Virus record (IMG/VR): IMGVR_UViG_3300037466_003757
Coordinates: 54,680-118,679 of that record
Strand: one strand, 5' to 3'
DNA: 64,000 nt
Source: a virus
Taxonomy: Duplodnaviria > Heunggongvirae > Uroviricota > Caudoviricetes
A program made the translations under genes and the position numbers. The notes under the pieces are model-generated. The model ran no database searches, was not told the DNA's origin, and was given only the letters and a program-made list of their open reading frames with translations. Positions 4,028 through 48,716 of this stretch are shown here, piece by piece. Numbering within the stretch: the stretch's first letter is position 1; every line of letters starts with the position of its first letter.

Positions 4028-4221
4028 AAGATATGCGGTATTACATCGCCGTTCTCAAGATCTACGGGCTTTTTCTCATGATTCTGAACACGGCGACGTT
4101 CATCGCTTGGGTCACGAACCCGCACGATCACAAGGTGCTTCTGTTCGTCACTCTCGGTCTGGATCTGCTCACGGTCGCCGTGGCGATCATCGACGCGATC
4201 GTGGAAAACGCCCGTGACTAG
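4024..4221 (+). CDS. small membrane protein
   Basis: MKDMRYY... internal start of the 3847 ORF; TM helices. Confidence 0.4.
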   Translation: MKDMRYYIAVLKIYGLFLMILNTATFIAWVTNPHDHKVLLFVTLGLDLLTVAVAIIDAIVENARD

Positions 4222-4414
4222 TCAACGATGGCGTTTGCTCTCCCAGATGACTCTGATCATCTCGATTTTCGCGTCCGTTTTCACGCTCACCTCGATGGCG
4301 ATTCATCCGAATCTGTCCACGTGGCCGTGGACACTCACATCGATGTGCGTCGCCGTCGTCTCGTTGGTGATTTTCGACTACGCCCGCGAACGTGCGAAAG
4401 ACGAGGACGCGTGA
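4214..4414 (+). CDS. small membrane protein
   Basis: 66 aa, hydrophobic. Confidence 0.45.
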   Translation: MTSQRWRLLSQMTLIISIFASVFTLTSMAIHPNLSTWPWTLTSMCVAVVSLVIFDYARERAKDEDA

Positions 4415-4788
4415 TGATCACTTCGTTTAGTTTTCGCGAATTGAGACAGTACCGCAAATTGAACAAAGCCGATCGCGTGTTCATGCAGTCGAAAATCTCG
4501 GGCGTCATCGGATTGCTGGCTGCCGTCGTACTCGTCATCATTGTCATATTCAATCCGTATGGCGTGAACGGCGTGATGGTGTATGTTCTGCTCGGTGTCA
4601 CAGTCACGATGATCGCGGGACTGTGGTCGGCGGACATGCTGGCGATGAAAGCGATCGAATTACATCGAGAGACTCGCGATCGATTGTGGGACGCATATTT
4701 CAATGTCAACGCCACAAGTAACGATCTGAGCGACGATCTGAGCGACGAAAAAAGTTCCGACGATAGTTTTCCCGACCGCGACGTGTAA
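4414..4788 (+). CDS. membrane protein with acidic C-terminus
   Basis: MITSFSF... start inside the 4228 ORF; TM helices followed by a D/S-rich tail. Confidence 0.45.
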   Translation: MITSFSFRELRQYRKLNKADRVFMQSKISGVIGLLAAVVLVIIVIFNPYGVNGVMVYVLLGVTVTMIAGLWSADMLAMKAIELHRETRDRLWDAYFNVNATSNDLSDDLSDEKSSDDSFPDRDV

Positions 4789-4863
4789 ATCGCTCAGCGT
4801 TTAACTGAGACGTCAATAGCGACGTTTTGCGAATACGACAACGACAAGACGAAAGACAAAACG

Positions 4864-5319
4864 ATGACCGACAAGATTTATCTGACTCCCGAACCGCCAC
4901 GTTTCGGTTCACCGTTACTGCCTCCGCCGATGCCTTCATCGAATGCTCCCGAATCGGAACTTTCGGAGAACGAGCCGGAAAGGCGTCGTCAAGAGCGAAC
5001 ACAGGCGATCTCCGAATTCAATTGGCGCGTACGGATCACCGTCGCCGACGATCGTCATCTTCCGGAGGAAGTGATCCGTATCCTCGGTAGCCGTGATTTC
5101 GAGGGATTGGATTGGACGTTGTCCAGTTCACCGATTTGTTTCGGAATGTTTCAGCTCACAGTGACCGACGAATTCCCGACCGTCAAGCATTTTTTGCGCA
5201 CGTTGACGCTCAAAACGGGCGTGATTCGACACAGTCCGCCGTTGACTATCGCAGAAGCAGATATTGCCGCGACCACGCTGATGCTGACCGCAGAACGCGT
5301 CGATCCGAAGGACAAGTGA
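4864..5319 (+). CDS. hypothetical protein
   Basis: 151-aa ORF with an ACA-rich leader. Confidence 0.5.
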   Translation: MTDKIYLTPEPPRFGSPLLPPPMPSSNAPESELSENEPERRRQERTQAISEFNWRVRITVADDRHLPEEVIRILGSRDFEGLDWTLSSSPICFGMFQLTVTDEFPTVKHFLRTLTLKTGVIRHSPPLTIAEADIAATTLMLTAERVDPKDK

Positions 5320-5320
5320 C

Positions 5321-6205
5321 ATGCAACTCGGTGAAAACTGGCAGTGCGAACCCCAGGATAACGTCACCGCGAGCGACGCACGGCATTTCTACGTATTTGC
5401 TGCCGCGTTGGATCTTCTCGAAGAGAAACCGAACCTTCTCGGGGATCAACGTGTCTACGAAGAATGTATGAAGATCCAGGAACTCGTCTGCGGTCTCACT
5501 CCCGACAGAATCATGCAGACCTGGCTGTCGATCATCAATAATCGTGACATCGAATCGCTGGAACAGATCTTCGTGGACGAGAGCGACGAAGCCATGTACA
5601 TGCGAAAACTGTCGCCGCTCGGCGTACTTTTCGACCATGACATCATGTCTGCGTGCAGTCGGCGTGCGATCAATCGCGAAATGATCAAGCACCGGGAGCG
5701 GAAGGAGATTTTCTCGCGCGAACGTGAAAAAGCGGCGGAGATTGCGCGTAAGTTCGATGAGCGGGAAAACGATTATCCGCTCACTCGTACGACTTCGGAG
5801 GATGATATGTCCGATACCGACGACATCCGCGACAGCGCCGACATTCTCGACGACGGCGACGACATTCAATCCGTCGTTCATCCCGCCACACCGTGGATCC
5901 CACCGGTTATTTCCGACCGGACTCGGAAACTGGTCCGGCAGATCCTGAAGTCGGACACCGGTAAGGGTACGTACCGCGCCAGTCTCACCCTGGACGAGCA
6001 TCGTGACTTGATGGATGCCGCGCGGGAACTGAAGCTCGTTCACGGGCACGTCATCGAGACGATCACGTCCTACGATACTTCGGATCCGAACGCGATGTAC
6101 GAGACCAAGGCGATTGCGACGGCGTCCGGTCTCACCGCGTTGCTGATCTACAAGCACGAGATCGCCAAATTCCGCGGTCACATCAAAACGAACGACGCGA
6201 AATGA
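5321..6205 (+). CDS. hypothetical protein
   Basis: 294-aa ORF. Confidence 0.55.
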   Translation: MQLGENWQCEPQDNVTASDARHFYVFAAALDLLEEKPNLLGDQRVYEECMKIQELVCGLTPDRIMQTWLSIINNRDIESLEQIFVDESDEAMYMRKLSPLGVLFDHDIMSACSRRAINREMIKHRERKEIFSREREKAAEIARKFDERENDYPLTRTTSEDDMSDTDDIRDSADILDDGDDIQSVVHPATPWIPPVISDRTRKLVRQILKSDTGKGTYRASLTLDEHRDLMDAARELKLVHGHVIETITSYDTSDPNAMYETKAIATASGLTALLIYKHEIAKFRGHIKTNDAK

Positions 6206-6732
6206 GCGAGATCTTCGAAGTATCAGCTCCCAGTGGCAGGGACGGCGCGCTCGTACTCGGTCACACCAACGGTGACATTGCGGAGGACACCAAACTCAAA
6301 ATGCGTTTGATGCGTGAATTGACGCGCATCGTCGGAAGCGATCCGGTCAAATATCCGCTGACGTTCACGTTGACTGGCGACACGAATCATCCCGGTGAAT
6401 GGCTGATCGAAATCAAGGGTCCGCACAGTACTATCATCGATGCGCTAACCAAGGCGACCGCTGCCGCACGTTTCGACGAGAAAAACGCAAACGTACCGGA
6501 ACCGCCGAAAACGTACGCGGAACGGACTGAACGGCGAGTTTCGCAACGTGACGCGATCACGCGAGTCATCAATGCCGTCGACCGTTATCAGCACGCGTAT
6601 GCGTCCGATGATCCCGCATGGGCCGACGAAGAAAGTTATGCGGAAGAACTCATTTGCACCGCGGCGCGTGAACTCGTCGAGACAACCGATGCGGTGCATC
6701 CGAATGATCAGCCAATAGGATGGAAGAAGTGA
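6202..6732 (+). CDS. hypothetical protein
   Basis: 176-aa ORF; 4-bp overlap with the upstream gene. Confidence 0.55.
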   Translation: MSEIFEVSAPSGRDGALVLGHTNGDIAEDTKLKMRLMRELTRIVGSDPVKYPLTFTLTGDTNHPGEWLIEIKGPHSTIIDALTKATAAARFDEKNANVPEPPKTYAERTERRVSQRDAITRVINAVDRYQHAYASDDPAWADEESYAEELICTAARELVETTDAVHPNDQPIGWKK

Positions 6733-7184
6733 CCAAGGGACGTTTCAGCGCGGTTCGTTACGCGAGTCGAGTCGCGGAGGAGACCGCGCTGGCCACGCTC
6801 GAACGGTTTTACGACGGACCGTGGTATCCCATTCTGCCGTCCCATTTGCTGCGATCCGCCCAGGTCACTACGACACCGGAAGCACAGCGACGGTTCGTCC
6901 GCGAGACGTACAACTGCTGGGACGTCACGACTCGGCAGAAATGGTACGACTACTATTGTTGCGCTAAGCACGGCGACATGGTTGTCGGTGGGCCGAATCA
7001 CGGTCGCTGCAATTCCTGTATCGCCGAACGACAGATTCCGTCACCGGATCCGCGCATGATGTTCGAGACGATCACCGTGATTAACGAATTGATCGAGACC
7101 GGCGACATCAAAGACACGCCTATGCCTGATGATCTCGTTCTGCTGATTCAGCTCTTGACGGGACAGAACGGAGACAGCGTATGA
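6720..7184 (+). CDS. Cys-rich (zinc-binding?) protein
   Basis: CC...H...C..C cluster. Confidence 0.5.
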   Translation: MEEVTKGRFSAVRYASRVAEETALATLERFYDGPWYPILPSHLLRSAQVTTTPEAQRRFVRETYNCWDVTTRQKWYDYYCCAKHGDMVVGGPNHGRCNSCIAERQIPSPDPRMMFETITVINELIETGDIKDTPMPDDLVLLIQLLTGQNGDSV

Positions 7185-29326: not shown

Positions 29327-29659
29327 TTAGTCGAGTTCTTTTCCGTACGCCCAGTCCAATGCCTGATCGCTGTCATCGAACTCTTTCATTCGCGGATATC
29401 GCTGAATAGGATCGTCGTCCTGCCATGCGACTCCCACTGACGATTGAACACCGCTGCCCCAGGTGTCAGCACGAATAAAAACGTGTGTCTCGTCAGAGAT
29501 TTTGACGACCTGATAATAGTCTGTGTTTTTGACCTTGTACGCGAGACGTACCAGAATCCACGCGATCCAGTATCGAAATCCGAATTCTTTGATACACCAA
29601 TATTCGGGATACACGCGGAGAGAGGAGTACTCGAAACTCACGAACGTCAAACGCCGCAT
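29327..29659 (-). CDS. hypothetical protein
   Basis: 110 aa. Confidence 0.45.
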   Translation of the reverse strand: MRRLTFVSFEYSSLRVYPEYWCIKEFGFRYWIAWILVRLAYKVKNTDYYQVVKISDETHVFIRADTWGSGVQSSVGVAWQDDDPIQRYPRMKEFDDSDQALDWAYGKELD

Positions 29660-29754
29660 CCCGATTAGCAGTCGGGTCCCAGCCCTGCTGGGTTCACTCT
29701 CCTCAGCGGCGAGCGGAGGTCCCGACCCCCATACAGTCTCCCGTACGTACCGCT

Positions 29755-29782
29755 TTCAAAACGGTCTCGCGCACCCGCGCGA
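29755..29782 (-). terminator. intrinsic terminator after tRNA-Gln
   Basis: Hairpin TCGCGC-GGGU-GCGCGA followed by GACCGUUUUG on the minus strand. Confidence 0.45.
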
Positions 29783-29808
29783 TTCGCTCGCCATGTTCAG
29801 TTATCAAG

Positions 29809-30681: not shown

Positions 30682-31437
30682 CTACCTGAATCCGCCGTTG
30701 AATCCCGCCCTACGAACCGTGGAGAGCCAGTATTTGGCGAAATTCCCGTCCGGCTCTTCGGGAAGAACGGTGGGACTGTCGAATACGGACTCATATTCGC
30801 CGACCGCGTCGAACAATTTCTTGTTCGTGGTGTCTCGAGCGCACGCCTCGCCGAATGCATGATACGCGTCGGGATCGGACACGCGAACGCTCATGTCACC
30901 GGTCGTCCAAAGACTCTTACCACATTCCATGAGACGTAGTATATGCTTGGCATGCTTCGCCCGTCGGCGATCGTTCGGGTCAGTGTGACGATCGGTTACG
31001 AGACGAACCTGCTGGTTCATGAATCCCAGATACGAGTTACGAACCGACGGTGCGCTGAGAAACGATTGACGTTCCTGAACCAGCATGTCGCCGAGACCGG
31101 TGACAAACGATCGGTCATCGTCCGCTGCCCACAGTACTTCCAGCATCGTGGGATTACACTTCAGCGCCAGCCGGCAAAACTTGCCCGCCTCGTGAAAGGC
31201 GAAGTCTTCGTGTTCGCCGTGCTCGCTCCATGTCTGATCACGTTCGCTGGGTGGAAACAGCCCGTCCAATACTCCGGGCGGTTCGGCGAATACGCCGTGC
31301 CAGTCCATGTCCGACTCCGGCGTATTCGTTCCGTACGCGTGGGAGCCGCAGAGGACCTGCAAGAGCATTTGACTATCGCGGGGTCGTGCGCTCCTCATTG
31401 TCCTTGTCCTTTCAGTCTTTCGGATCGCGTAGGTCAA
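30682..31437 (-). CDS. nucleotidyltransferase (pol-beta superfamily, ANT/minimal-NTase-like)
   Basis: LCGSHAYGTNTPESDMDWHGVF matches the GS...SDxD NTase signature. Confidence 0.6.
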   Translation of the reverse strand: MTYAIRKTERTRTMRSARPRDSQMLLQVLCGSHAYGTNTPESDMDWHGVFAEPPGVLDGLFPPSERDQTWSEHGEHEDFAFHEAGKFCRLALKCNPTMLEVLWAADDDRSFVTGLGDMLVQERQSFLSAPSVRNSYLGFMNQQVRLVTDRHTDPNDRRRAKHAKHILRLMECGKSLWTTGDMSVRVSDPDAYHAFGEACARDTTNKKLFDAVGEYESVFDSPTVLPEEPDGNFAKYWLSTVRRAGFNGGFR

Positions 31438-32705: not shown

Positions 32706-34367
32706 TCAGATACGACCGAGTGCGAAGTCGGCCATCAACTGGGGTGTCGCCGTATCGAAACCGGCGACGTTCAACGAACCCGGATCCTTCGGATCCGCGA
32801 TCGTCCAGTCGGTTGCGGTCATTCCCACAACGATCAATCGTGCATTCGGATTGATCTTGTTGCGGTACATTTCGAGTGCCTTGTGTGGATGAACGTCACC
32901 CGCCCAGTTTTCGCTGTCCGTATAGATCGTGAAAACGTCGATCTTCGTCTTGGTCTCCAACGCCCACCGCATCGGCAACGCGCAGTCGGTTCCACCCGCA
33001 CGTGTACGACCGACGACACTAATGGCGTCCGTCAGTCGCTGATGCGGCGAAATACCCAACGGAGCGATGCCCCAGTCACTGTAATAGCTACGTCGCGACG
33101 ACTTAGTACTCGGAGTCCAGGTGTGACCCGCAAGACCAGACGAGAACGCCGTGATCACGTGCTCCGGTTCGACCTTCGCCGTGACGAGAGCCATGACAGT
33201 TGCCGCGTCACGAGGCGTGATCGACATTTTGGCGATGTTGTCCCAAGTCATCGATCCGGAGACATCGATCGCCAACATGTGCGTCTTGCCGGTGGACTCG
33301 ACCGTATCGAACGATGCGTAGAACGCGGCGTCGAGTGCGTCCACGATCCGTTGAACCGGAGTCCAACGATTCGAGCCCTTCTCGCCGTGACCACGCTCGT
33401 AGACCCTCATCGCGTTGAGAATGGAAAGCGGATGTACGCGCGCCTTCTTCAAACGTTCCGGATCGGTGAGCTGATCGCAGACACGCTGCGTCCATTCGGC
33501 ACCGACCTGCGCAACGAGACCGACGTTCGTCAACGTGGGCAGATTACGCAAGAGCGCAGTCTGTGGCATACCCGATTCGAGCAATGCCTCCCATACGTCC
33601 GGACGCTTCAACGCATCGGTGGGTACCATTTCGCGAACGAGACGATACTCACGAACTATTTGCGCCACCTCGCTGGGCTTCGCCGCACGTGCTTTCTGGA
33701 AACCCTCCACGATACGGATACCGTCGCCCGACCAGTTCGGATCGTAACCCAGTGCCCATCGGAACAAACGACGCTGCTGCTCGTCCTTCGGCTTCGGGTG
33801 ATCGAGCTGGATGATTCGCCGCGGCGTCCAGTCGTTCCGATTGCGATACTTGGTGATTTGATACGCGGTCTTGTTCGTGTCCTCGGTCAGCCACTTCTCG
33901 ATCGCGCGCTTGAACGCCGTACTACCGACACCGCGCATCGCCTTCGAGTAACCCATAAACGTGTACAGCGCCGTAGCGGTACGCGCCACCTGAGGCAGAG
34001 CGGCGAGTGCAGCGCGTCGACCTTCGACATCCGAGGATGCGGCTGCGGCTGCGAGAGCGAACAGAGCGGGTTCCTGCTTCGCCGCGCGACCGCTGACGGA
34101 CACGTCCACGGCTGCGTTGACGAGCTTGATCGGATTCTTCTCTGCGAGTTCGCGAACGATCTTGACGTTCTCGATCGCCAGATCACGGGCCTTCACATAA
34201 TACGTGCCGCCCTCGACTCCGAGAATCAGGAAACGGTTGAGACGCGCGTCCTCATCGACGGTGAATACGTAACCACCGGCGTTGTTCTTGACCTGGGCAG
34301 GATCCACCTTCTCGGTCGCGGGAACCGTGCGTGTGACCGCTTCGGTGAGTGCGTCGAATGTCGCCAT
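32706..34367 (-). CDS. rsr: Ro60/TROVE-domain ribonucleoprotein with C-terminal vWA domain (Rsr-like)
   Basis: TROVE-like N-terminal two-thirds; C-terminal MIDAS motif AIDVSGSMT; 553 aa. Confidence 0.75.
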   Translation of the reverse strand: MATFDALTEAVTRTVPATEKVDPAQVKNNAGGYVFTVDEDARLNRFLILGVEGGTYYVKARDLAIENVKIVRELAEKNPIKLVNAAVDVSVSGRAAKQEPALFALAAAAASSDVEGRRAALAALPQVARTATALYTFMGYSKAMRGVGSTAFKRAIEKWLTEDTNKTAYQITKYRNRNDWTPRRIIQLDHPKPKDEQQRRLFRWALGYDPNWSGDGIRIVEGFQKARAAKPSEVAQIVREYRLVREMVPTDALKRPDVWEALLESGMPQTALLRNLPTLTNVGLVAQVGAEWTQRVCDQLTDPERLKKARVHPLSILNAMRVYERGHGEKGSNRWTPVQRIVDALDAAFYASFDTVESTGKTHMLAIDVSGSMTWDNIAKMSITPRDAATVMALVTAKVEPEHVITAFSSGLAGHTWTPSTKSSRRSYYSDWGIAPLGISPHQRLTDAISVVGRTRAGGTDCALPMRWALETKTKIDVFTIYTDSENWAGDVHPHKALEMYRNKINPNARLIVVGMTATDWTIADPKDPGSLNVAGFDTATPQLMADFALGRI

Positions 34368-34379
34368 GTCGTGTCTTCT

Positions 34380-35330
34380 TTCGTGGATGGAGTGTGAACG
34401 AGTCTGTTGACGAACGGCTGTTTATTCACTGTGGTGGAGTGGGTTCGATAACCGTACATCGGGAGTTCACACCGACATTCCGTTCGAGACGGGCAGTCGG
34501 AAAAGACGAACGAGTCAGGCGTGTCCGGAATTGACGTCCGGGAGTTACCCGAGAACGTATTGGATTCGAACCAATAATACCAGCGATAACCGGAACACAA
34601 AGAGTTCGTTTTATCCCACTGTCCGTTTCAGAATGGGAGACGTAGAAAGTAGACGATATCGAACGAAAACGCATGCCAATCGGGTTTGTGTGCTCCCAAT
34701 AGCGATAACCGACTAACAAATGAGTTCGATATCGACTGCCTCCTACGTCCATAAATCGAACGTTTATCGTGTGATCGGGAGAGCCGAACGAATCGGGCGC
34801 TGCTCGGATCTGGTGTCTGATGCTCTGCCAATTGGAGCTACCGACTTGCGTCGGACGGGACTCGAACCCGTAACCATCGGATTTGATTCGATAACCGAAC
34901 AACAAAGAGTTCGACTCTCCGAATCACACGATAAGGGAGGCGGGACGCGAAAGAGGAGCAACGCCGAACGAAACGGGTGCATTGTCGGGGTTTAGAGCTT
35001 TACCAATTAAGCTACCGCCCCATGAGCGGAGCGGACCGGACTCGAACCGGTATCCCTCGTTTTCTAGACGATAACCGACTTCGCGGGGAGTTCGGCGCTG
35101 CTCGTCTTCAACGTCCCTTATTCAATTGTCAACGTACGTAATAAGGATGGGGATTCGAACGAATCGATGATAACCGATGAATTGTATTAGCAGTACGATA
35201 ACCGGAAATCGGGAGTTCGAATCCCTCTAGCCCTTACCCATCTAGTTCGTTCTAACGCCTTTGCGATCCTGGAGGAGCGTTTTTTGGCGTTTCGATCGAA
35301 CGAGATTTATCGTATCACGCTTCAGTCGAA
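34380..35330. repeat. array of tRNA-like repeat units (CGATAACCG ... GAGTTCGA) and tRNA half-like fragments
   Basis: Six or more units with GATAACCG followed 8-12 nt later by a GAGTTCGA-type T-loop; canonical 5'-half and 3'-half tRNA sequences in non-canonical order. Confidence 0.5.
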
Positions 35331-42305: not shown

Positions 42306-42761
42306 TCAATTTCCTTTCTGATCTCCGTGTACGACACGAAGTTCCAAGTGTTCCATCAGCAACGTGAACAATTCGATCTCGTTCGCTGGGAACCGGAAAA
42401 CACTGAATGCGTTTCCGTGAGTCTCATGCGACCACAATGTCTCGTTTACGTCGTACGACGGAATATCGACAGGGTCTGAATCCGGTTCGTGAATACGCTT
42501 CAGGGCGTAACCGAAGCGATAGTACAGCGGAGGCCATTGAAACAGAATGAGACCGTATTCGATCGTGTCGAACAATCGCCGAACCGTATCCACACCGTGG
42601 AACGCGATATAAGCGCGTTGCTCGGTTTCGCCCTGACACGAAAACGCGGTCTTGAATCCCGCCGTATTCAGTGCCTCCAATAGTTTTTGCAGACGTTCGT
42701 CCACTGTTACGCCTGGCCATCGCTCACCGAGTGGCACCTGTACGTGATTGTGCGTATGCAC
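42306..42761 (-). CDS. hypothetical protein
   Basis: 151 aa. Confidence 0.5.
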   Translation of the reverse strand: MHTHNHVQVPLGERWPGVTVDERLQKLLEALNTAGFKTAFSCQGETEQRAYIAFHGVDTVRRLFDTIEYGLILFQWPPLYYRFGYALKRIHEPDSDPVDIPSYDVNETLWSHETHGNAFSVFRFPANEIELFTLLMEHLELRVVHGDQKGN

Positions 42762-43458: not shown

Positions 43459-43595
43459 AAACGCGAGAACGCCTACGATCGCCGATCATAACCGGAACGA
43501 ACGAATCAAAACGACGATCGTTCTTCCAGACGTTCTCGCTAAGCGTCACGACTTTCGAATTCGGACAGGAAATACGAAATCGGTCGAGACACTCG

Positions 43596-44781: not shown

Positions 44782-45591
44782 TTACTCGACTGTTGCGTCC
44801 TTCGCCGCATTGATCGGAGCGAACATATAGTCGAGCAGTGGCTGTGCGACCTGGTAGTCGTTTACCTCTACGTTGTTCGCTTCCTCGCGGGCGAATTTCA
44901 CCGCGTTACGTAGCTTTTCGATCCGTTCGGCAGTCTCGGCGACCGTGTCGTACGGAAGACCACCGGACAAGTTGATCTGCGACCACGTACCCTGAACGAC
45001 GTCCTCGTGAATCAACTGCACCTGAGCCGGATGCTTGTCCGTCGCCGGCGACAATTGGAACGATTTGGGCTCCTTCTTGGTCTTGAACGTCTCGACCTTG
45101 TCGGAAATCCAAACGCCCTTGGCAGCGTCGTACGTCCACGACTGTTCCGGATCGAGAACCGGGAAGTTGGAAATGAACGTAGCGAGATCGGTCAACTGTT
45201 TCTCGAGAAACAGCATGTATGTGACCGGTACGTCCGTCGCCAACGTCTGACCGTCCACGACGATGTCGGCTTTCGCGCCAGCGTTCGCTACCTCGTGGGT
45301 GAAAACAAGGTCGAACAACCGGGTGAGGAGCTTCGTGACCTCGTCCATGACGACCGCGGAACGAACCTGCACGAGCTGCGATTCGTTCGGGAAAACGTCG
45401 CCGTCCTCGGTCTTCGGCTTGTACGTCCGAATCCGACCCTTCCAGAGACCGTCCTTACTGAGGGTCCGGTAGAGTTCGGTCCATCGCGTGGTCGTCTTGT
45501 GCTTGACACCCTTCTCGACCGACACGATCTGATTCAGTTTTGTCAAGGTTTTTCCTGTCTTGTCTGATTTTCGTATCTCATATTCGCCCAT
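44782..45591 (-). CDS. hypothetical protein
   Basis: 269 aa. Confidence 0.55.
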   Translation of the reverse strand: MGEYEIRKSDKTGKTLTKLNQIVSVEKGVKHKTTTRWTELYRTLSKDGLWKGRIRTYKPKTEDGDVFPNESQLVQVRSAVVMDEVTKLLTRLFDLVFTHEVANAGAKADIVVDGQTLATDVPVTYMLFLEKQLTDLATFISNFPVLDPEQSWTYDAAKGVWISDKVETFKTKKEPKSFQLSPATDKHPAQVQLIHEDVVQGTWSQINLSGGLPYDTVAETAERIEKLRNAVKFAREEANNVEVNDYQVAQPLLDYMFAPINAAKDATVE

Positions 45592-45685: not shown

Positions 45686-45785
45686 ATAGACGTCACAATA
45701 GCAAGATGGATATACCATGGGTGTTATGGTGACGTCAAACGTCGCATTTCTCGGTTGGATAACCAATATTTTTATGGCGACGTAG

Positions 45786-46560: not shown

Positions 46561-46632
46561 TGCGCCTAAAGGGATTCGAACCCCTGACCTCTTCCTCCGG
46601 AGGGAAGCGCTCTTCCGCTGAGCTATAGACGC
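46561..46632 (-). tRNA. tRNA-Arg(CCG)
   Basis: Perfect cloverleaf; anticodon loop CTCCGGA. Confidence 0.75.
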
Positions 46633-46710
46633 GAAATATATGACGGTATCGAACTTCCACATCCGATACCGTCCGCCTCGCCACCGTGATTATGGAAAGC
46701 AAAGGCTAAG

Positions 46711-46783
46711 TGCGCCCGGAGAGATTCGAACTCCCAACCTTCTGATCCGTAGTCAGACACTCTATCCGTTGAGCTACGGGCGC
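46711..46783 (-). tRNA. tRNA-Arg(ACG)
   Basis: Cloverleaf; anticodon loop CTACGGA. Confidence 0.7.
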
Positions 46784-47388
46784 AGTTCCCCATCCAGTGT
46801 CCCGATGGACGGGGGTTTAACTTAGTACCGGTACACGAGCGAATGTGTGGGTCGCTCGCCATCCCCACATGAAACCGGTCGGGAACTAGCGGAAGACGGA
46901 GGTCTTGATCCCCAAGCCTGTGACAGCTCGTTCCGCTTTCGAAACGGACCCGGGCACCTACCCGGTTCGTCTTCCAGACCGCCACAGCCGTTTCAGGGGG
47001 GATTAACGGCTGTGGCGAACGATCGTAGTATAGGGCGCGCGGTGTCGGGTCGCGCACTACGATCGTCGCGGAGAATGGAGTACTCGAAACCCAAGCGGTC
47101 TATGCCACTCGTACCGCCTTCCAAGCGGCCTCTGACACCTGCCAGATTCATTCTCCAGAGCCCCCATCAGTTTGCGTCTCAGGGGCGGGAGACGTCGAAG
47201 CCGACGCACAAACCCGGGCATGTGGTCGCTGTCAGATGATTTCCCATGGTTCCCACCACGTCCGAAACTGTTGCAGAATCTGCTCGGATCCAATAACGAA
47301 ACGAAACTGCAATTTCCGCTTCTAGGAGGCTTTACGTTCGCCGACAACGGGACAATGGCCATCATCCATAGTTTGGTCAACGAACTGG
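46784..47388 (-). ncRNA. 600-nt non-coding region packed with long perfect hairpins (candidate structured RNA)
   Basis: No tRNA and no convincing ORF; 10-11-bp perfect inverted repeats at ~46978-47011 and ~47034-47080 plus other hairpins. Confidence 0.3.
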
Positions 47389-47461
47389 AGCGGATGACCG
47401 GCCTCGAACCGGCGACATTCTGCTTGGAAGGCAGACGCTCTACCAACTGAGCTACACCCGC
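47389..47461 (-). tRNA. tRNA-Gly(TCC)
   Basis: Cloverleaf; anticodon loop CTTCCAA. Confidence 0.7.
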
Positions 47462-47562
47462 ATGGTGGAATCGGAGTCCAACCCGAAACCATTTCGATGT
47501 AGGTCGCGATGACCTGGCGGTTCCTCTGCCAAAAACACCGTGCTCAGTGGTGCCCATCGAAG

Positions 47563-47644
47563 CTCCGGTACCTGGATTCGAACCAAGATAGAGGTTTCCC
47601 TCACGGATTAACAGTCCGCTGCATTGCCATTATGCTATACCGGA
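47563..47644 (-). tRNA. tRNA-Asn(GTT)-like with 15-nt variable arm
   Basis: Acceptor TCCGGTA/TACCGGA, D-arm GCAT-AATGGCA-ATGC, anticodon loop CTGTTAA, extra GAGG-GAAA-CCTC hairpin. Confidence 0.5.
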
Positions 47645-48012: not shown

Positions 48013-48144
48013 ATTGACTGCGACTAGGAAACCATCGTCGCAATCGCTCCTCGTGGATGGTGAGAGTTGTCCACTTGTGTTTGGGAGGAGCAACGTTCGT
48101 GTGGTGACGGAGAGGAACTATCGGTGTGTTTCCCACGAACGTGG

Positions 48145-48273: not shown

Positions 48274-48345
48274 GCGCTTCGAAGGGACTCGAACCCCTAT
48301 TTTCCGTTTAATAAACGGATGTTCTTCCCGTTGAACTACGAAGTT
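48274..48345 (-). tRNA. tRNA-like, anticodon ATT? (possible pseudogene)
   Basis: Good D-arm, anticodon arm and T-arm, but two acceptor mismatches and A34. Confidence 0.3.
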
Positions 48346-48426: not shown

Positions 48427-48554
48427 GCAGTGCTCAGTGAACGGATCGTACGCTTCCGAACTTCGGCGATCGAATTACCGGGCGTCCCCGAATGTCTCGA
48501 TTTCCCAGGTGCGAACACACCACCTGTTTCTTCACGTTGTCGCTTGGGAGTCGA

Positions 48555-48644
48555 ACCCAGTCTCCGGTACTACCCGGCGCATTCCCGTTATGCTATACGA
48601 CTATGAAGATAGTACCCCCGGCAGGATTCGAACCCGCCGAGTAG
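48555..48644 (-). pseudogene. tRNA pseudogene fragments (D-arm plus defective anticodon arm, then an isolated T-arm)
   Basis: GCAT-AACGGGA-ATGC D-arm, then a 4-bp stem with a 6-nt loop and no acceptor pairing; separate GCGGG-TTCGAAT-CCTGC T-arm at 48621-48645. Confidence 0.35.
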
Positions 48645-48716
48645 TAGGCCCCCAGGGACTCGAACCCTGTTCTGCTGATTAAGAGTCAGCGGTTTTACCT
48701 GTTATACTAGAGGCCC
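48645..48716 (-). tRNA. tRNA-Lys(CTT)
   Basis: Acceptor with two G-U pairs; anticodon loop CTCTTAA; T-arm CAGGG-TTCGAGT-CCCTG. Confidence 0.55.

What the first reader, a model, noticed from the sequence alone, without database searches (positions are those of the whole stretch)
46784..47388. 600-bp ORF-poor, hairpin-dense spacer inside the tRNA cluster: candidate structured RNA (tmRNA-like or other)
There is no tRNA and no convincing CDS, but several 10-11-bp perfect inverted repeats (CCACAGCCGTT...AACGGCTGTGG; CGATCGTAGT...ACTACGATCG) and other GC-rich stems. Related large phages with big tRNA sets often also carry a tmRNA. I could not locate a tRNA-like 3' end with CCA or a recognisable tag reading frame, so the identity is open.
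Basis: seen in the sequence. Interest (0 to 1): 0.6.

Follow-up and report, generated by a model that had tools for sequence, protein, structure and literature searches.

The report
Two hidden non-canonical serine tRNA genes
The "empty" 600-bp gap in this phage's tRNA cluster holds two serine tRNA genes of an unusual but already described shape (8-bp acceptor stem, 4-bp T stem) that standard tRNA finders miss, plus two spacer hairpins; it is not a tmRNA.

Summary
The claim "there is no tRNA" is wrong.

**What the gap holds.** On the minus strand it carries two ~87-nt genes, 46890-46975 (anticodon CGA) and 47069-47156 (anticodon GGA). Each folds into the "(8/4)" tRNA-Ser / allo-tRNA cloverleaf described by Mukai et al. 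2017:
- an 8-bp acceptor stem and a 4-bp T stem;
- a tRNA-Sec-like 6-bp D stem with a tetraloop;
- a long variable arm and G73.

**The rest of the set.** Two more copies (UGA, GCU) lie at 29707-29792 and 29616-29702. Together the four supply the only amino acid missing from the 42 tRNAs that ARAGORN called.

**Support for the fold.** A covariance model finds 45 relatives in phages, and further relatives in bacterial genome assemblies. Across the 45, 95.9% of cells are paired and 25 of 27 pairs show compensatory changes. The eighth acceptor pair holds in 44 of 45 sequences. The fifth T-stem pair that a canonical 7/5 fold would need holds in 4 of 44.

**Other readings excluded.** There are no tmRNA, RNase P or intron hits.

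**The spacer hairpins.** The two perfect hairpins (46980-47017 and 47019-47066) fill the spacer between the two tRNAs. They are unique to this genome, and similar structured spacers are common across the cluster. Their role (processing or folding insulation) is inferred only.

**Verdict:** a new member of a known, rarely annotated kind; modest interest.

The parts
46890..46975 (-). tRNA-Ser(CGA), (8/4) architecture. Acceptor GGAAGACG/CGTCTTCC (8 bp), linker AA, D stem CCGGGT/GCCCGG (6 bp) with loop AGGT, anticodon loop TTCGAAA, variable stem-loop GAGC(T)...(G)GCTT, T stem GGGG/CCTC (4 bp) with loop ATCAAGA, and discriminator G73 followed by C (no CCA).
   Evidence: CM R1 103 bits. Family CM R2 93 bits with filters off. 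ARAGORN -ps calls tRNA-Ser(cga). MFE fold z = -3.0.
47069..47156 (-). tRNA-Ser(GGA), (8/4) architecture. Acceptor GGAGAATG/CATTCTCC, D stem TCTGGC/GTCAGA with loop AGGT, anticodon loop TTGGAAG, variable stem GAGTGG/CCGCTT, T stem GGGT/ACTC with loop TTCGAGT, and G73 followed by C.
   Evidence: CM R1 103.7 bits. R2 79.1 bits. ARAGORN -ps85 calls tRNA-Ser(gga). MFE fold z = -3.35.
46980..47017 (.). Perfect 13-bp hairpin (CGCCACAGCCGTT / AACGGCTGTGGCG) with a 12-nt C-rich loop on the RNA strand (AAUCCCCCCUGA). It ends 4 nt before the 5' end of tRNA-Ser(CGA). No U tract follows it.
   Evidence: Not listed as terminator-like. No copy elsewhere in the window.
47019..47066 (.). Perfect 11-bp hairpin (ACGATCGTAGT / ACTACGATCGT) enclosing an inner GCGCG/CGCGC stem. 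It starts 2 nt after the discriminator of tRNA-Ser(GGA).
   Evidence: No copy elsewhere in the window. No match in phage records.
47157..47385 (-). 229-nt spacer between tRNA-Gly(tcc) and tRNA-Ser(GGA). It has a hairpin directly after tRNA-Gly (about 47336-47385) and a small leader hairpin CGTCTC-AGGGGCGG-GAGACG (47175-47194). The loop of the leader hairpin resembles the loop of the 13-bp hairpin (direct repeat CGT[T/C]TCAGGGG, spacing 186). Overall the fold is not better than shuffles.
   Evidence: z = +0.8 and -1.1; z = -0.76. No Rfam hit, no R2 hit, no phage match.
46784..46889 (-). 106-nt spacer between tRNA-Ser(CGA) and tRNA-Arg(acg). Its ends pair (AGUUCCC/GGGGAACU) around small hairpins. 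The fold is weakly significant.
   Evidence: z = -1.2; z = -2.2. No Rfam, CM or blast hit.
29707..29792 (-). tRNA-Ser(UGA) of the same (8/4) shape, outside the finding. Part of the same isoacceptor set.
   Evidence: R1 80.4 bits. R2 84.8 bits. ARAGORN -ps85 calls tga.
29616..29702 (-). tRNA-Ser(GCU) of the same (8/4) shape, 4 nt downstream of the UGA gene. It has one U-U mismatch at acceptor pair 7.
   Evidence: R1 65.3 bits. R2 74 bits. ARAGORN -ps calls gct.

Best explanation
The gap is not empty. On the minus strand, the same strand as all 42 called tRNAs, it encodes two serine tRNAs, tRNA-Ser(CGA) and tRNA-Ser(GGA), with the non-canonical '(8/4)' cloverleaf of the allo-tRNA / (8/4) tRNA-Ser class.

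**Shape (shown).** Each has an 8-bp acceptor stem plus a 4-bp T stem. That is still a 12-bp acceptor branch, as in the canonical 7+5. Each also has a tRNA-Sec-like 6-bp D stem with a tetraloop, a long variable arm and G73.

**Set (shown).** With two more genes of the same shape at 29.6-29.8 kb (UGA, GCU), they form the phage's complete serine-decoding set.

**How they likely work (inferred).**
- They are transcribed within the polycistronic tRNA array.
- RNase P cuts the 5' end (U at -1 for both).
- The 3' end is trimmed after G73-C74 and completed by a CCA-adding enzyme, as for nearly all other tRNAs of the cluster.
- The host SerRS charges them through the long variable arm and G73.
- EF-Tu and the ribosome accept them because the acceptor/T helix keeps 12 bp.

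**The hairpins (inferred only).** The two perfect hairpins between the genes, and the closed stem-loops in the flanking spacers, are lineage-specific spacer structures. Many spacers of this array have structures of this sort. They most likely act as self-contained folding or processing modules of the precursor. They keep the two 82%-identical tRNAs from mispairing and define cleavage sites. They are not a separate functional RNA gene.
For: **No other Ser tRNA.**
- ARAGORN tRNAs covering every amino acid except Ser.

**Detection of the four genes.**
- CM R1, built from the two elements, finds exactly two further copies in the window, with UGA and GCU anticodons.
- Family CM R2 with filters off gives 74-93 bits for these four. 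The next best hit is 36 bits or less and is a canonical tRNA.
- ARAGORN at relaxed thresholds independently calls all four as tRNA-Ser cga, gga, gct and tga.

**Covariation on 45 family members from 13 sources.**
- 95.9% of cells are paired, against 42-50% when partners are slid.
- 25 of 27 pairs show double changes.
- The eighth acceptor pair is paired in 44 of 45 (GC 35, AU 5, CG 3, UA 1).
- The fifth T pair needed for a 7/5 fold is paired in only 4 of 44.

**Anticodons and ends.**
- 44 of the 45 have Ser anticodons.
- All four window genes have G73 followed by C, as do 37 of 38 other tRNAs of the window. Only 4 of those 38 encode a full CCA.

**Fit to codon use.**
- TCG and TCC, read by CGA and GGA, are the commonest Ser codons in 16 phage ORFs.

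**Literature.**
- Mukai et al. 2017 (PMC5389517) define this class, report it in phage tRNA clusters, and show that allo-tRNAs insert Ser in E. coli.

**Hairpins.**
- Searches show them.
- 12 of 28 spacers in this array fold with z < -3.
- 6 of 26 do so in the related Gordonia phage GodonK.
Against: - No expression, processing or aminoacylation data exist for this genome.
- The Rfam tRNA and tRNA-Sec models do not reach even E <= 10 on the two genes, and default ARAGORN misses them.
- The family alignments were fitted to the model's structure, which favours pairing counts. This is mitigated by the slide controls and by the direct 8/4-versus-7/5 test.
- tRNA-Ser(CGA) has an unusual T loop (AUCAAGA, A at the usual T54 position). 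Many family members share this.
- The anticodon stem is 5 bp, not the longer stem the paper describes for allo-tRNAs in general.
- For the hairpins there is no comparative evidence at all. No close relative of this phage was found.
Confidence: 0.9

Rival explanations
1. The gap encodes a tmRNA or another known structured RNA (RNase P RNA, a group I/II intron, a riboswitch).
For: The region is hairpin-dense and ORF-poor and sits inside a large phage tRNA cluster. Some large actinophages carry a tmRNA (general knowledge).
Against: - ARAGORN's default run (tRNA and tmRNA genes) and its tmRNA-only mode at a relaxed threshold (-m -ps85) find nothing.
- Rfam 15 at gathering score over the window gives only tRNAs.
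- At E <= 10 over 46600-47600 there are only chance-level hits.
- About 29% of the gap (174 of 602 nt) is accounted for by two tRNA-Ser genes. The remaining pieces have no tRNA-like end or tag frame.
Confidence: 0.01
2. The two tRNA-shaped elements are not translational adaptors. They would be pseudogenes, or tRNA-like decoy or regulatory RNAs, for example bait for host tRNA-targeting nucleases or ligands of the phage Ro60 protein.
For: - Standard detectors miss them.
- No CCA is encoded, and one copy has an odd T loop.
- Mukai et al. found some allo-tRNA groups (UAU type, polycistronic irregular forms) inactive in E. coli and suggested regulatory roles.
- The phage encodes Ro60 and Y-RNA-like tRNA mimics elsewhere.
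Against: - All five helices are intact in all four copies, and the family shows abundant compensatory change.
- The four anticodons are exactly the set needed to read all six Ser codons.
- No canonical tRNA-Ser exists in an otherwise complete set.
- They share the G73-C74 ends of the other tRNAs.
- Allo-tRNAs with Ser identity are active in translation in E. coli (PMC5389517, abstract).
- The YrlA-like hits lie next to the Ro60 gene, 12 kb away.
Confidence: 0.06
3. The two perfect hairpins (46980-47066) are the functional feature. They would be a transcription terminator or attenuator of the U-tract-less ('I-shaped') type proposed for actinobacteria, or an RNase III site, or a small stable RNA like the species 1 and 2 RNAs of the T4 tRNA region.
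For: - Both are perfect stems, 13 and 11 bp; the whole window has 13 such hairpins against 1.45 expected from shuffles; the spacer fold has z = -7.8.
- They abut the tRNA ends with only 2-4 nt to spare.
- The host is probably a mycolic-acid-containing actinobacterium (LysB-like esterase, Gordonia-phage-like TerL).
Against: - No U tract follows on either strand, and the terminator scan does not list them.
- No homolog exists in any phage record and no second copy in the window.
- Equally stable spacers are common in this and a related array, which argues for a generic spacer property.
- In other phages the (8/4) tRNA-Ser genes are only 4-10 nt apart with no hairpins, so the hairpins are not needed by the tRNAs.
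Confidence: 0.2
4. The hairpins and flanking spacers are non-functional leftovers, for example of the ~180-bp tandem duplication that produced the two tRNA-Ser genes, or a small palindromic insertion.
For: - The two tRNAs are 82% identical with a start-to-start spacing of 179 bp.
- About 30 nt of their leaders still align (CCCCTGA[A/G]ACG ... G[G/C]TCT).
- The spacers are unique to this genome.
Against: Perfect 13-bp and 11-bp complementarity is not what decay leaves behind. Hairpins of this kind are about 9-fold enriched over shuffles across the window.
Confidence: 0.25

Closest known systems
(8/4) tRNA-Ser, a subgroup of the (8/4) allo-tRNAs (Mukai et al. 2017, Nucleic Acids Res 45:2776, PMC5389517)
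   Same: - 8-bp acceptor stem plus 4-bp T stem (12-bp branch).
- tRNA-Sec-like long D stem with a tetraloop ending in a pyrimidine.
- Long variable arm, G73 and serine anticodons.
- Location in phage tRNA gene clusters.
- Direct sequence homologs (R1, 50-82 bits) in Caulobacter, Ruegeria/Roseobacter, Phaeobacter and Mesorhizobium phages, the host groups named in the paper.
   Different: - This genome is related to Gordonia phages (TerL 52-56% aa identity) and has a LysB-like esterase, so the host is probably an actinobacterium. The paper's main text names alpha-proteobacterial phages.
- All four Ser isoacceptors are of this shape.
- The tRNA-His here appears canonical (7/5 with G-1:C73, hand pairing, not covariation-tested), not the (8/4) tRNA-His that co-occurs in the alpha-proteobacterial phages.
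- The anticodon stem is 5 bp.
- The two genes in the gap are separated by two perfect hairpins instead of a few nucleotides.
Bacterial tRNA-Sec (selC)
   Same: 8-bp acceptor stem, 6-bp D stem with a 4-nt loop, long variable arm, G73, and charging by SerRS.
   Different: - tRNA-Sec has a 13-bp acceptor branch (8/5) and a UCA anticodon.
- Here the branch is 12 bp (8/4) and the anticodons are CGA, GGA, UGA and GCU.
- There is no Rfam tRNA-Sec hit.
Canonical class II bacterial tRNA-Ser (7/5)
   Same: Long variable arm, G73, G1:C72 and G2:C71, the same anticodons, and the same presumed function.
   Different: - Canonical tRNA-Ser has a 7-bp acceptor stem, a 5-bp T stem, and a 3-bp D stem with a large loop.
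- The fifth T pair is absent here (paired in 4 of 44 family members).
- L013, a distant relative by the DUF7873 marker (31% aa identity), carries canonical 7/5 tRNA-Ser (hand pairing of the GCU gene).
Small stable RNAs and structured spacers of phage tRNA clusters (for example T4 species 1 and 2 RNAs; my own knowledge, not checked here)
   Same: Non-tRNA structured segments embedded between the tRNA genes of a phage array.
   Different: There is no sequence or family relationship, and no evidence here that the hairpins accumulate as RNAs.

Membership tests
(8/4) tRNA-Ser / (8/4) allo-tRNA | 8-bp acceptor stem | tested here: met
   GGAAGACG/CGTCTTCC and GGAGAATG/CATTCTCC. Across the family, the eighth pair is paired in 44 of 45 with 9 double changes.
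(8/4) tRNA-Ser / (8/4) allo-tRNA | 4-bp T stem (12-bp acceptor branch), not 5 bp | tested here: met
   The T stem is 100% paired over 4 pairs. The would-be fifth pair is paired in 4 of 44. It is a U-C mismatch in all four window genes.
(8/4) tRNA-Ser / (8/4) allo-tRNA | tRNA-Sec-like long D stem with a tetraloop (Y at position 20) | tested here: met
   6-bp D stems with loop AGGU in both genes. All 6 pairs covary in the family, 95.9% paired. Numbering the last loop base as position 20 is my inference.
(8/4) tRNA-Ser / (8/4) allo-tRNA | Long variable arm and discriminator G73 or U73 (SerRS identity elements) | tested here: met
   Variable stem-loops of 18-20 nt. The 4 stem pairs are 98.9% paired with double changes. 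G73 is present in all four window genes.
(8/4) tRNA-Ser / (8/4) allo-tRNA | Serine anticodon (this separates (8/4) tRNA-Ser from other allo-tRNAs) | tested here: met
   CGA and GGA in the gap, UGA and GCU at 29.6-29.8 kb. 44 of 45 family members have Ser anticodons.
(8/4) tRNA-Ser / (8/4) allo-tRNA | Anticodon stem longer than canonical (stated for allo-tRNAs as a group) | tested here: not met
   The stem is 5 bp in both genes. The outermost modelled pair is paired in only 20 of 45 family members. The paper's consensus drawing for the (8/4) tRNA-Ser subgroup (its Fig. 1C) could not be read, so it is unclear whether this feature applies to the subgroup.
(8/4) tRNA-Ser / (8/4) allo-tRNA | Charged with serine and active in translation | not testable with these tools
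   Inferred from the identity elements and from the E. coli assays on other allo-tRNAs in PMC5389517 (abstract).
tmRNA | tRNA-Ala-like domain formed by the 5' and 3' ends, a tag reading frame, and pseudoknots | tested here: not met
   ARAGORN's default run (tRNA and tmRNA genes) and its tmRNA-only mode at a relaxed threshold find none. No Rfam tmRNA hit at gathering score or at E <= 10.
tRNA-Sec (selC) | 13-bp acceptor branch (8/5 in bacteria) and UCA anticodon | tested here: not met
   The branch is 8+4 = 12 bp. The anticodons are CGA and GGA. There is no Rfam tRNA-Sec hit.
Canonical tRNA (Rfam RF00005, 7/5 cloverleaf) | 7-bp acceptor stem and 5-bp T stem; score above the Rfam gathering threshold | tested here: not met
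   No RF00005 hit on either gene, even at E <= 10. The 7/5 alternative fails at the fifth T pair.

The most novel reading that the evidence does not exclude
The perfect twin hairpins, and the many other closed stem-loop spacers of this array, may be purposeful RNA elements rather than filler. They could be folding insulators or processing guides needed when near-identical non-canonical tRNAs are transcribed in tandem, or small stable RNAs released from the precursor.

Alternatively, or in addition, the use of the 8/4 shape for the whole serine set may be an adaptation that makes the phage's serine decoding independent of, or resistant to, host factors that target canonical tRNA-Ser.
Probability: 0.15. 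Interest if true: 0.55.

Novelty: new member of a known kind. Interest (0 to 1): 0.3.

Why it matters
**Practical point.** A 'hole' in a phage tRNA array can hide real tRNA genes.
- Default ARAGORN and the Rfam tRNA model miss all four serine tRNAs of this phage.
- Homologs are unannotated in the GenBank records of at least seven cultured phages: REQ2, CcrColossus, BL57, DSS3_MAL1, DSS3P8, MD18 and Cp1R7A-A1.
- Counting them changes the picture from 'no tRNA-Ser' to a complete 20-amino-acid set. That matters for studies of phage tRNA repertoires, codon adaptation and host prediction.

**Biological point.** The (8/4) tRNA-Ser class extends to a relative of Gordonia phages. It also occurs in tRNA arrays or tandem sets in Nocardia, Pseudofrankia, Polyangium, Roseibium and Planctomycetota assemblies. 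This supports the view that the shape is a widespread, mobile alternative solution for class II tRNA-Ser. It does not open a new kind of system.

Tried and rejected
**Known RNA families.**
- tmRNA, RNase P and introns were rejected: Rfam at gathering score and at E <= 10, and ARAGORN's tmRNA detection.
- A Y-RNA (YrlA) reading of the gap was rejected. The only hit in the gap region overlaps tRNA-Gly at E = 1.6. The real YrlA-like hits lie next to the Ro60 gene at 34.8-35.1 kb.

**Protein coding.**
- All ORFs in the gap overlap tRNAs or are at most 26 aa.

**Repeats and homologs of the non-tRNA parts.**
- A repeated or mobile palindromic element was rejected: neither hairpin arm nor any spacer piece recurs in the window.
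- No homolog of the non-tRNA parts exists in cultured phages (blastn, E <= 1).

**Further hidden tRNAs.**
- There are no further 8/4 tRNAs in the gap or elsewhere in the window: R2 with filters off shows a clean drop from 74 to 36 bits.

**Search for close relatives, needed to test hairpin covariation.** All attempts failed.
- The DUF7873 marker in IMG/VR gave at best 54% aa identity, which is Gordonia phage GodonK.
- TerL in IMG/VR gave no confirmed relative.
- A generic 8/4 tRNA-Ser pattern in IMG/VR gave nothing.
- A pattern specific to tRNA-Ser(CGA) in JGI metagenomes gave nothing.
- The DUF7873 marker in metagenomes gave at most 49% identity.
- The only contig carrying the exact protein is a 100% identical Logan assembly contig from SRR35106392.

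**Other checks.**
- No sigma-70-like promoter and no copy of the array's repeated TTTACA-N17-TACGAT motif lies in the gap.
- (8/4) tRNA-His: by hand pairing (no covariation test), the window's tRNA-His (50005-50081) reads as canonical 7/5 with G-1:C73 (sequence).
Full report
**1. The observation**

The interval 46784-47388 is exactly the gap between two ARAGORN calls on the minus strand, tRNA-Arg(acg) 46710-46783 and tRNA-Gly(tcc) 47386-47461. The window carries 42 called tRNAs, all on the minus strand.

- 46980-46992 / 47005-47017 is a perfect 13-bp stem with a 12-nt loop.
- 47019-47029 / 47056-47066 is a perfect 11-bp stem enclosing a second GC stem.

The 93 nt that hold them fold at -49.7 kcal/mol, z = -7.8. 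Perfect hairpins of at least 11 bp with loops of 3-60 nt number 13 in the window, against 1.45 +/- 1.26 in 40 dinucleotide shuffles. They are therefore not chance.

No ORF in the gap is credible. The long ones (144, 166 and 130 aa) run through tRNA genes, and the others are at most 26 aa.

**2.

The ARAGORN set covers every amino acid except serine. The repeat finder also reported two things:
- a 29-nt direct repeat with 179-bp spacing (46889-46917 and 47068-47096);
- two 8-bp terminal inverted repeats about 70 nt apart (GGAAGACG...CGTCTTCC and GGAGAATG...CATTCTCC).

Read on the minus strand, each ~87-nt unit is a cloverleaf with these parts:
- an 8-bp acceptor stem, then AA;
- a 6-bp D stem with loop AGGU;
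- a 5-bp anticodon stem with loop UUCGAAA (anticodon CGA) or UUGGAAG (anticodon GGA);
- a variable stem-loop of 18-20 nt;
- a 4-bp T stem with a 7-nt loop;
- G73.

The MFE folds recover the acceptor, D, anticodon and variable helices, with z = -3.0 and -3.35.

**3. Tests**

*Detection.*
- A covariance model of the two units (R1) scores them at 103-104 bits. It finds two more copies in the window: 29707-29792 (80 bits, anticodon UGA) and 29616-29702 (65 bits, anticodon GCU).
- A family model built from 45 members (R2), run over the whole window with filters off, gives 74-93 bits for these four. Nothing else exceeds 36 bits, and the lower hits are the canonical tRNAs.
- With its threshold lowered (-ps, -ps85), ARAGORN calls the same four loci as tRNA-Ser cga, gga, gct and tga. 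Its tmRNA mode still finds nothing.

*Known families.*
- Rfam shows nothing but canonical tRNAs at gathering score.
- In 46600-47600 at E <= 10 it shows only chance-level hits. There is no tmRNA, RNase P, intron, tRNA or tRNA-Sec hit on the two units.

*Ends and codon use.*
- All four genes have G73 followed by C. So do 37 of the 38 Rfam-delimited tRNAs of the window, and only 4 of those encode a full CCA. The 3' ends therefore look like those of the neighbouring tRNAs.
- TCG (24.3 per 1000) and TCC (16.2 per 1000) are the commonest Ser codons in 16 likely phage genes. These are the codons read by CGA and GGA.

**4. Relatives and covariation**

*Where homologs occur.*
- blastn of the CGA gene against cultured phages finds full-length, unannotated homologs in these records:
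  - Rhodococcus phage REQ2
  - Caulobacter phages CcrColossus and BL57
  - Roseobacter/Ruegeria phages DSS3P8 and DSS3_MAL1
  - Phaeobacter phage MD18
  - Mesorhizobium phage Cp1R7A-A1
- In Gordonia phages GodonK and Phendrix the homologs are annotated as plain tRNA-Ser.
- R1 finds 45 members at E <= 1e-5 in the window plus 12 phage or metagenome loci. Of these, 44 have Ser anticodons.

*Pairing counts on that alignment.*
- The 8/4 structure is 95.9% paired, against 42-50% when partners are slid by 1-3 columns.
- 25 of 27 pairs have changes on both sides.
- The covariation score is 0.687, against 0.188 in shuffles.
- The eighth acceptor pair is paired in 44 of 45 (GC 35, AU 5, CG 3, UA 1).

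*The canonical alternative.* In the 7/5 fold the same 3' base must pair with the base before the T stem. That pair forms in only 4 of 44 sequences.

*Caveat.* The alignment is fitted to the model. However, the two alternatives use adjacent, unambiguous columns, and the slide control keeps relatedness.

*Bacterial genomes.* A scan of one genome per bacterial species with a 3'-half pattern, followed by R1, shows the same family. It typically occurs in tandem sets of 2-5 or inside tRNA arrays. The hosts include:
- Polyangium, Myxococcales and Planctomycetota assemblies
- Roseibium
- Nocardia sp. CC227C
- Pseudofrankia

**5. What it is in terms of the literature**

Mukai et al. 2017 (PMC5389517) describe 'allo-tRNAs' with an 8/4 or 9/3 split of the 12-bp acceptor branch, a long variable arm, a tRNA-Sec-like long D stem with a tetraloop, and G73 or U73. 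They state the following:
- (8/4) tRNA-Ser co-occurs with (8/4) tRNA-His in tRNA clusters of alpha-proteobacterial phages.
- SerRS accepts 8/4 and 9/3 substrates.
- Allo-tRNAs insert serine efficiently in E. coli.

The two genes in the gap meet every structural criterion I could test, except the 'longer anticodon stem' given for allo-tRNAs as a group. Here it is 5 bp.

They differ from the paper's examples in context:
- TerL is 52-56% identical to that of Gordonia phages Sixama, GodonK, Phendrix and GMA2.
- A LysB-like PE-PPE/cutinase protein is present, so the host is probably a mycolic-acid-containing actinobacterium.
- By hand pairing, the tRNA-His is canonical (sequence).

**6. The rest of the gap**

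*The hairpins.*
- They occupy the whole 93-nt spacer between the two tRNA-Ser genes. They start 2 nt after G73 of the GGA gene and end 4 nt before G1 of the CGA gene.
- No U tract follows either hairpin on either strand, and the terminator scan does not list them.

*Origin by duplication.*
- The two tRNAs are 82% identical.
- About 30 nt of their leaders still align, including the C-rich loop motif CCCCUGA.
- This suggests an old tandem duplication of about 180 bp.

*Uniqueness.* Neither hairpin, nor the 106-nt and 229-nt flanking spacers, recurs in the window. None matches any phage record or any Rfam family.

*Not required by the tRNAs.* In other phages the (8/4) tRNA-Ser genes sit 4-10 nt apart without hairpins. 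The window's own UGA/GCU pair is 4 nt apart.

*A general property of the array.*
- 12 of 28 spacers in this array fold with z < -3.
- 6 of 26 do so in GodonK.

I therefore read the hairpins as lineage-specific spacer structure of the precursor, serving folding insulation or processing. This is inference only. No close relative of this phage could be found to test conservation. The only other contig carrying the exact marker protein is 100% identical.

**7. Mechanism**

*Shown:*
- sequence, fold and covariation;
- the anticodon set;
- shared 3'-end features;
- the match to codon usage.

*Inferred from established tRNA biology and from PMC5389517:*
- co-transcription with the array;
- RNase P cleavage (U at -1 in both genes);
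- 3' trimming and CCA addition;
- serylation by the host SerRS through the variable arm and G73;
- EF-Tu and ribosome compatibility, because the acceptor/T helix keeps 12 bp.

**8. Verdict**

The finding resolves into two genuine but non-canonical tRNA genes of a class described in 2017, plus spacer hairpins of unproven function. It is a new member of a known kind. The interest is mainly practical, because these are hidden tRNA genes that annotation pipelines skip. There is a small residual chance that the hairpin modules, or the all-8/4 serine set, have a specific role.

Noticed in passing
window 32706-34367 (-), 34819-34878 (-), 34967-35081 (-), 30682-31437 (-): The phage encodes a Ro60/Rsr ortholog (TROVE plus Ro60 vWA domains, E 1e-54). 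Two sub-threshold YrlA (Y-RNA-like tRNA mimic) hits lie just upstream on the same strand (42.4 and 34.9 bits against a gathering score of 69). An RlaP 'RNA repair pathway' nucleotidyltransferase lies nearby. This looks like a likely phage Ro60/Y-RNA module.
   Followed up: partly
window 29616-29702 (-) and 29707-29792 (-): Two further (8/4) tRNA-Ser genes (GCU, UGA), 4 nt apart, lie next to the tRNA-Gln pair. Default ARAGORN and Rfam miss them too.
   Followed up: yes
GenBank phage records JN116823 (REQ2) 48487-48572; JX100810 (CcrColossus) ~62633-62719; PQ287320 (BL57) 52295-52381; MN602268, KT870145, MT270409, MT188704: (8/4) tRNA-Ser homologs sit in stretches with no annotated feature. There are usually 2-5 per phage, in tandem inside the tRNA cluster.
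   Followed up: partly
window, - strand: 53166-53138, 52805-52777, 49878-49850, 44287-44259, 43145-43117: A promoter-like motif, TTTACA-N17-TAC(G/C/T)AT with an upstream TG, recurs five times inside and at the edge of the tRNA array. This suggests several transcription units. None lies in the gap studied.
   Followed up: no
window 49808-50004 (-): This spacer folds into a tRNA-like shape: acceptor UCCGCC/GGCGGA, T arm GGGGUUCGAUUCCCC, and a 4-bp D stem with a tetraloop. However, its anticodon-arm loop is only 4 nt and it has a long extra hairpin. No tool calls it. It may be a tRNA-like RNA or a disrupted tRNA.
   Followed up: no
window 51933-52021, 45686-45784, 43459-43594, 51671-51855, 48013-48141 (-): Other spacers in the tRNA array have very stable folds (z -4 to -6.8) and long, nearly perfect stems. 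Their identity is unknown.
   Followed up: partly
window 46642-46673 (-): A 13-bp hairpin followed by a T-rich tail lies between tRNA-Arg(acg) and tRNA-Arg(ccg). It is the best intrinsic-terminator-like site of the array.
   Followed up: no
all tRNA genes of the window: In 41 of 42 tRNAs examined (38 Rfam-delimited plus the four Ser), the discriminator is followed by C. Only 4 encode a full CCA. C74 is therefore conserved and encoded, and CCA completion is implied.
   Followed up: partly
window 51159-51234, 48274-48345, 42553-42646, 52022-52091 (-): ARAGORN makes some odd calls: a tRNA with a 4-base anticodon (gtac), a tRNA-Asn(att), and two tRNA-Ile(tat), one of them 94 nt long. These may be frameshift-suppressor-like, intron-containing or mis-assigned tRNAs.
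   Followed up: no
window 48707-49312 (-) and 44782-45591 (-): Two protein genes are embedded in the tRNA array: an endonuclease-like protein (phage endonuclease I / Holliday junction resolvase families) and a DUF7873 protein. The DUF7873 protein is conserved in tRNA-rich phages of Gordonia, Arthrobacter, Rhodococcus, Rhizobium, Vibrio and cyanobacteria.
   Followed up: partly
L053 6394-6470 (-), metagenome contig WUUC01142999.1: A 77-nt hit to the 8/4 model has a GCA (Cys) anticodon and only a very short variable region. It may be an 8/4-type tRNA-Cys.
   Followed up: no
L125 (Pseudofrankia asymbiotica NZ_MOMC01000047.1) 4162-6960: A dense bacterial tRNA array holds 23 ARAGORN tRNAs in 2.8 kb. 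It also contains an (8/4) tRNA-Ser at 5451-5537 that ARAGORN does not call.
   Followed up: no
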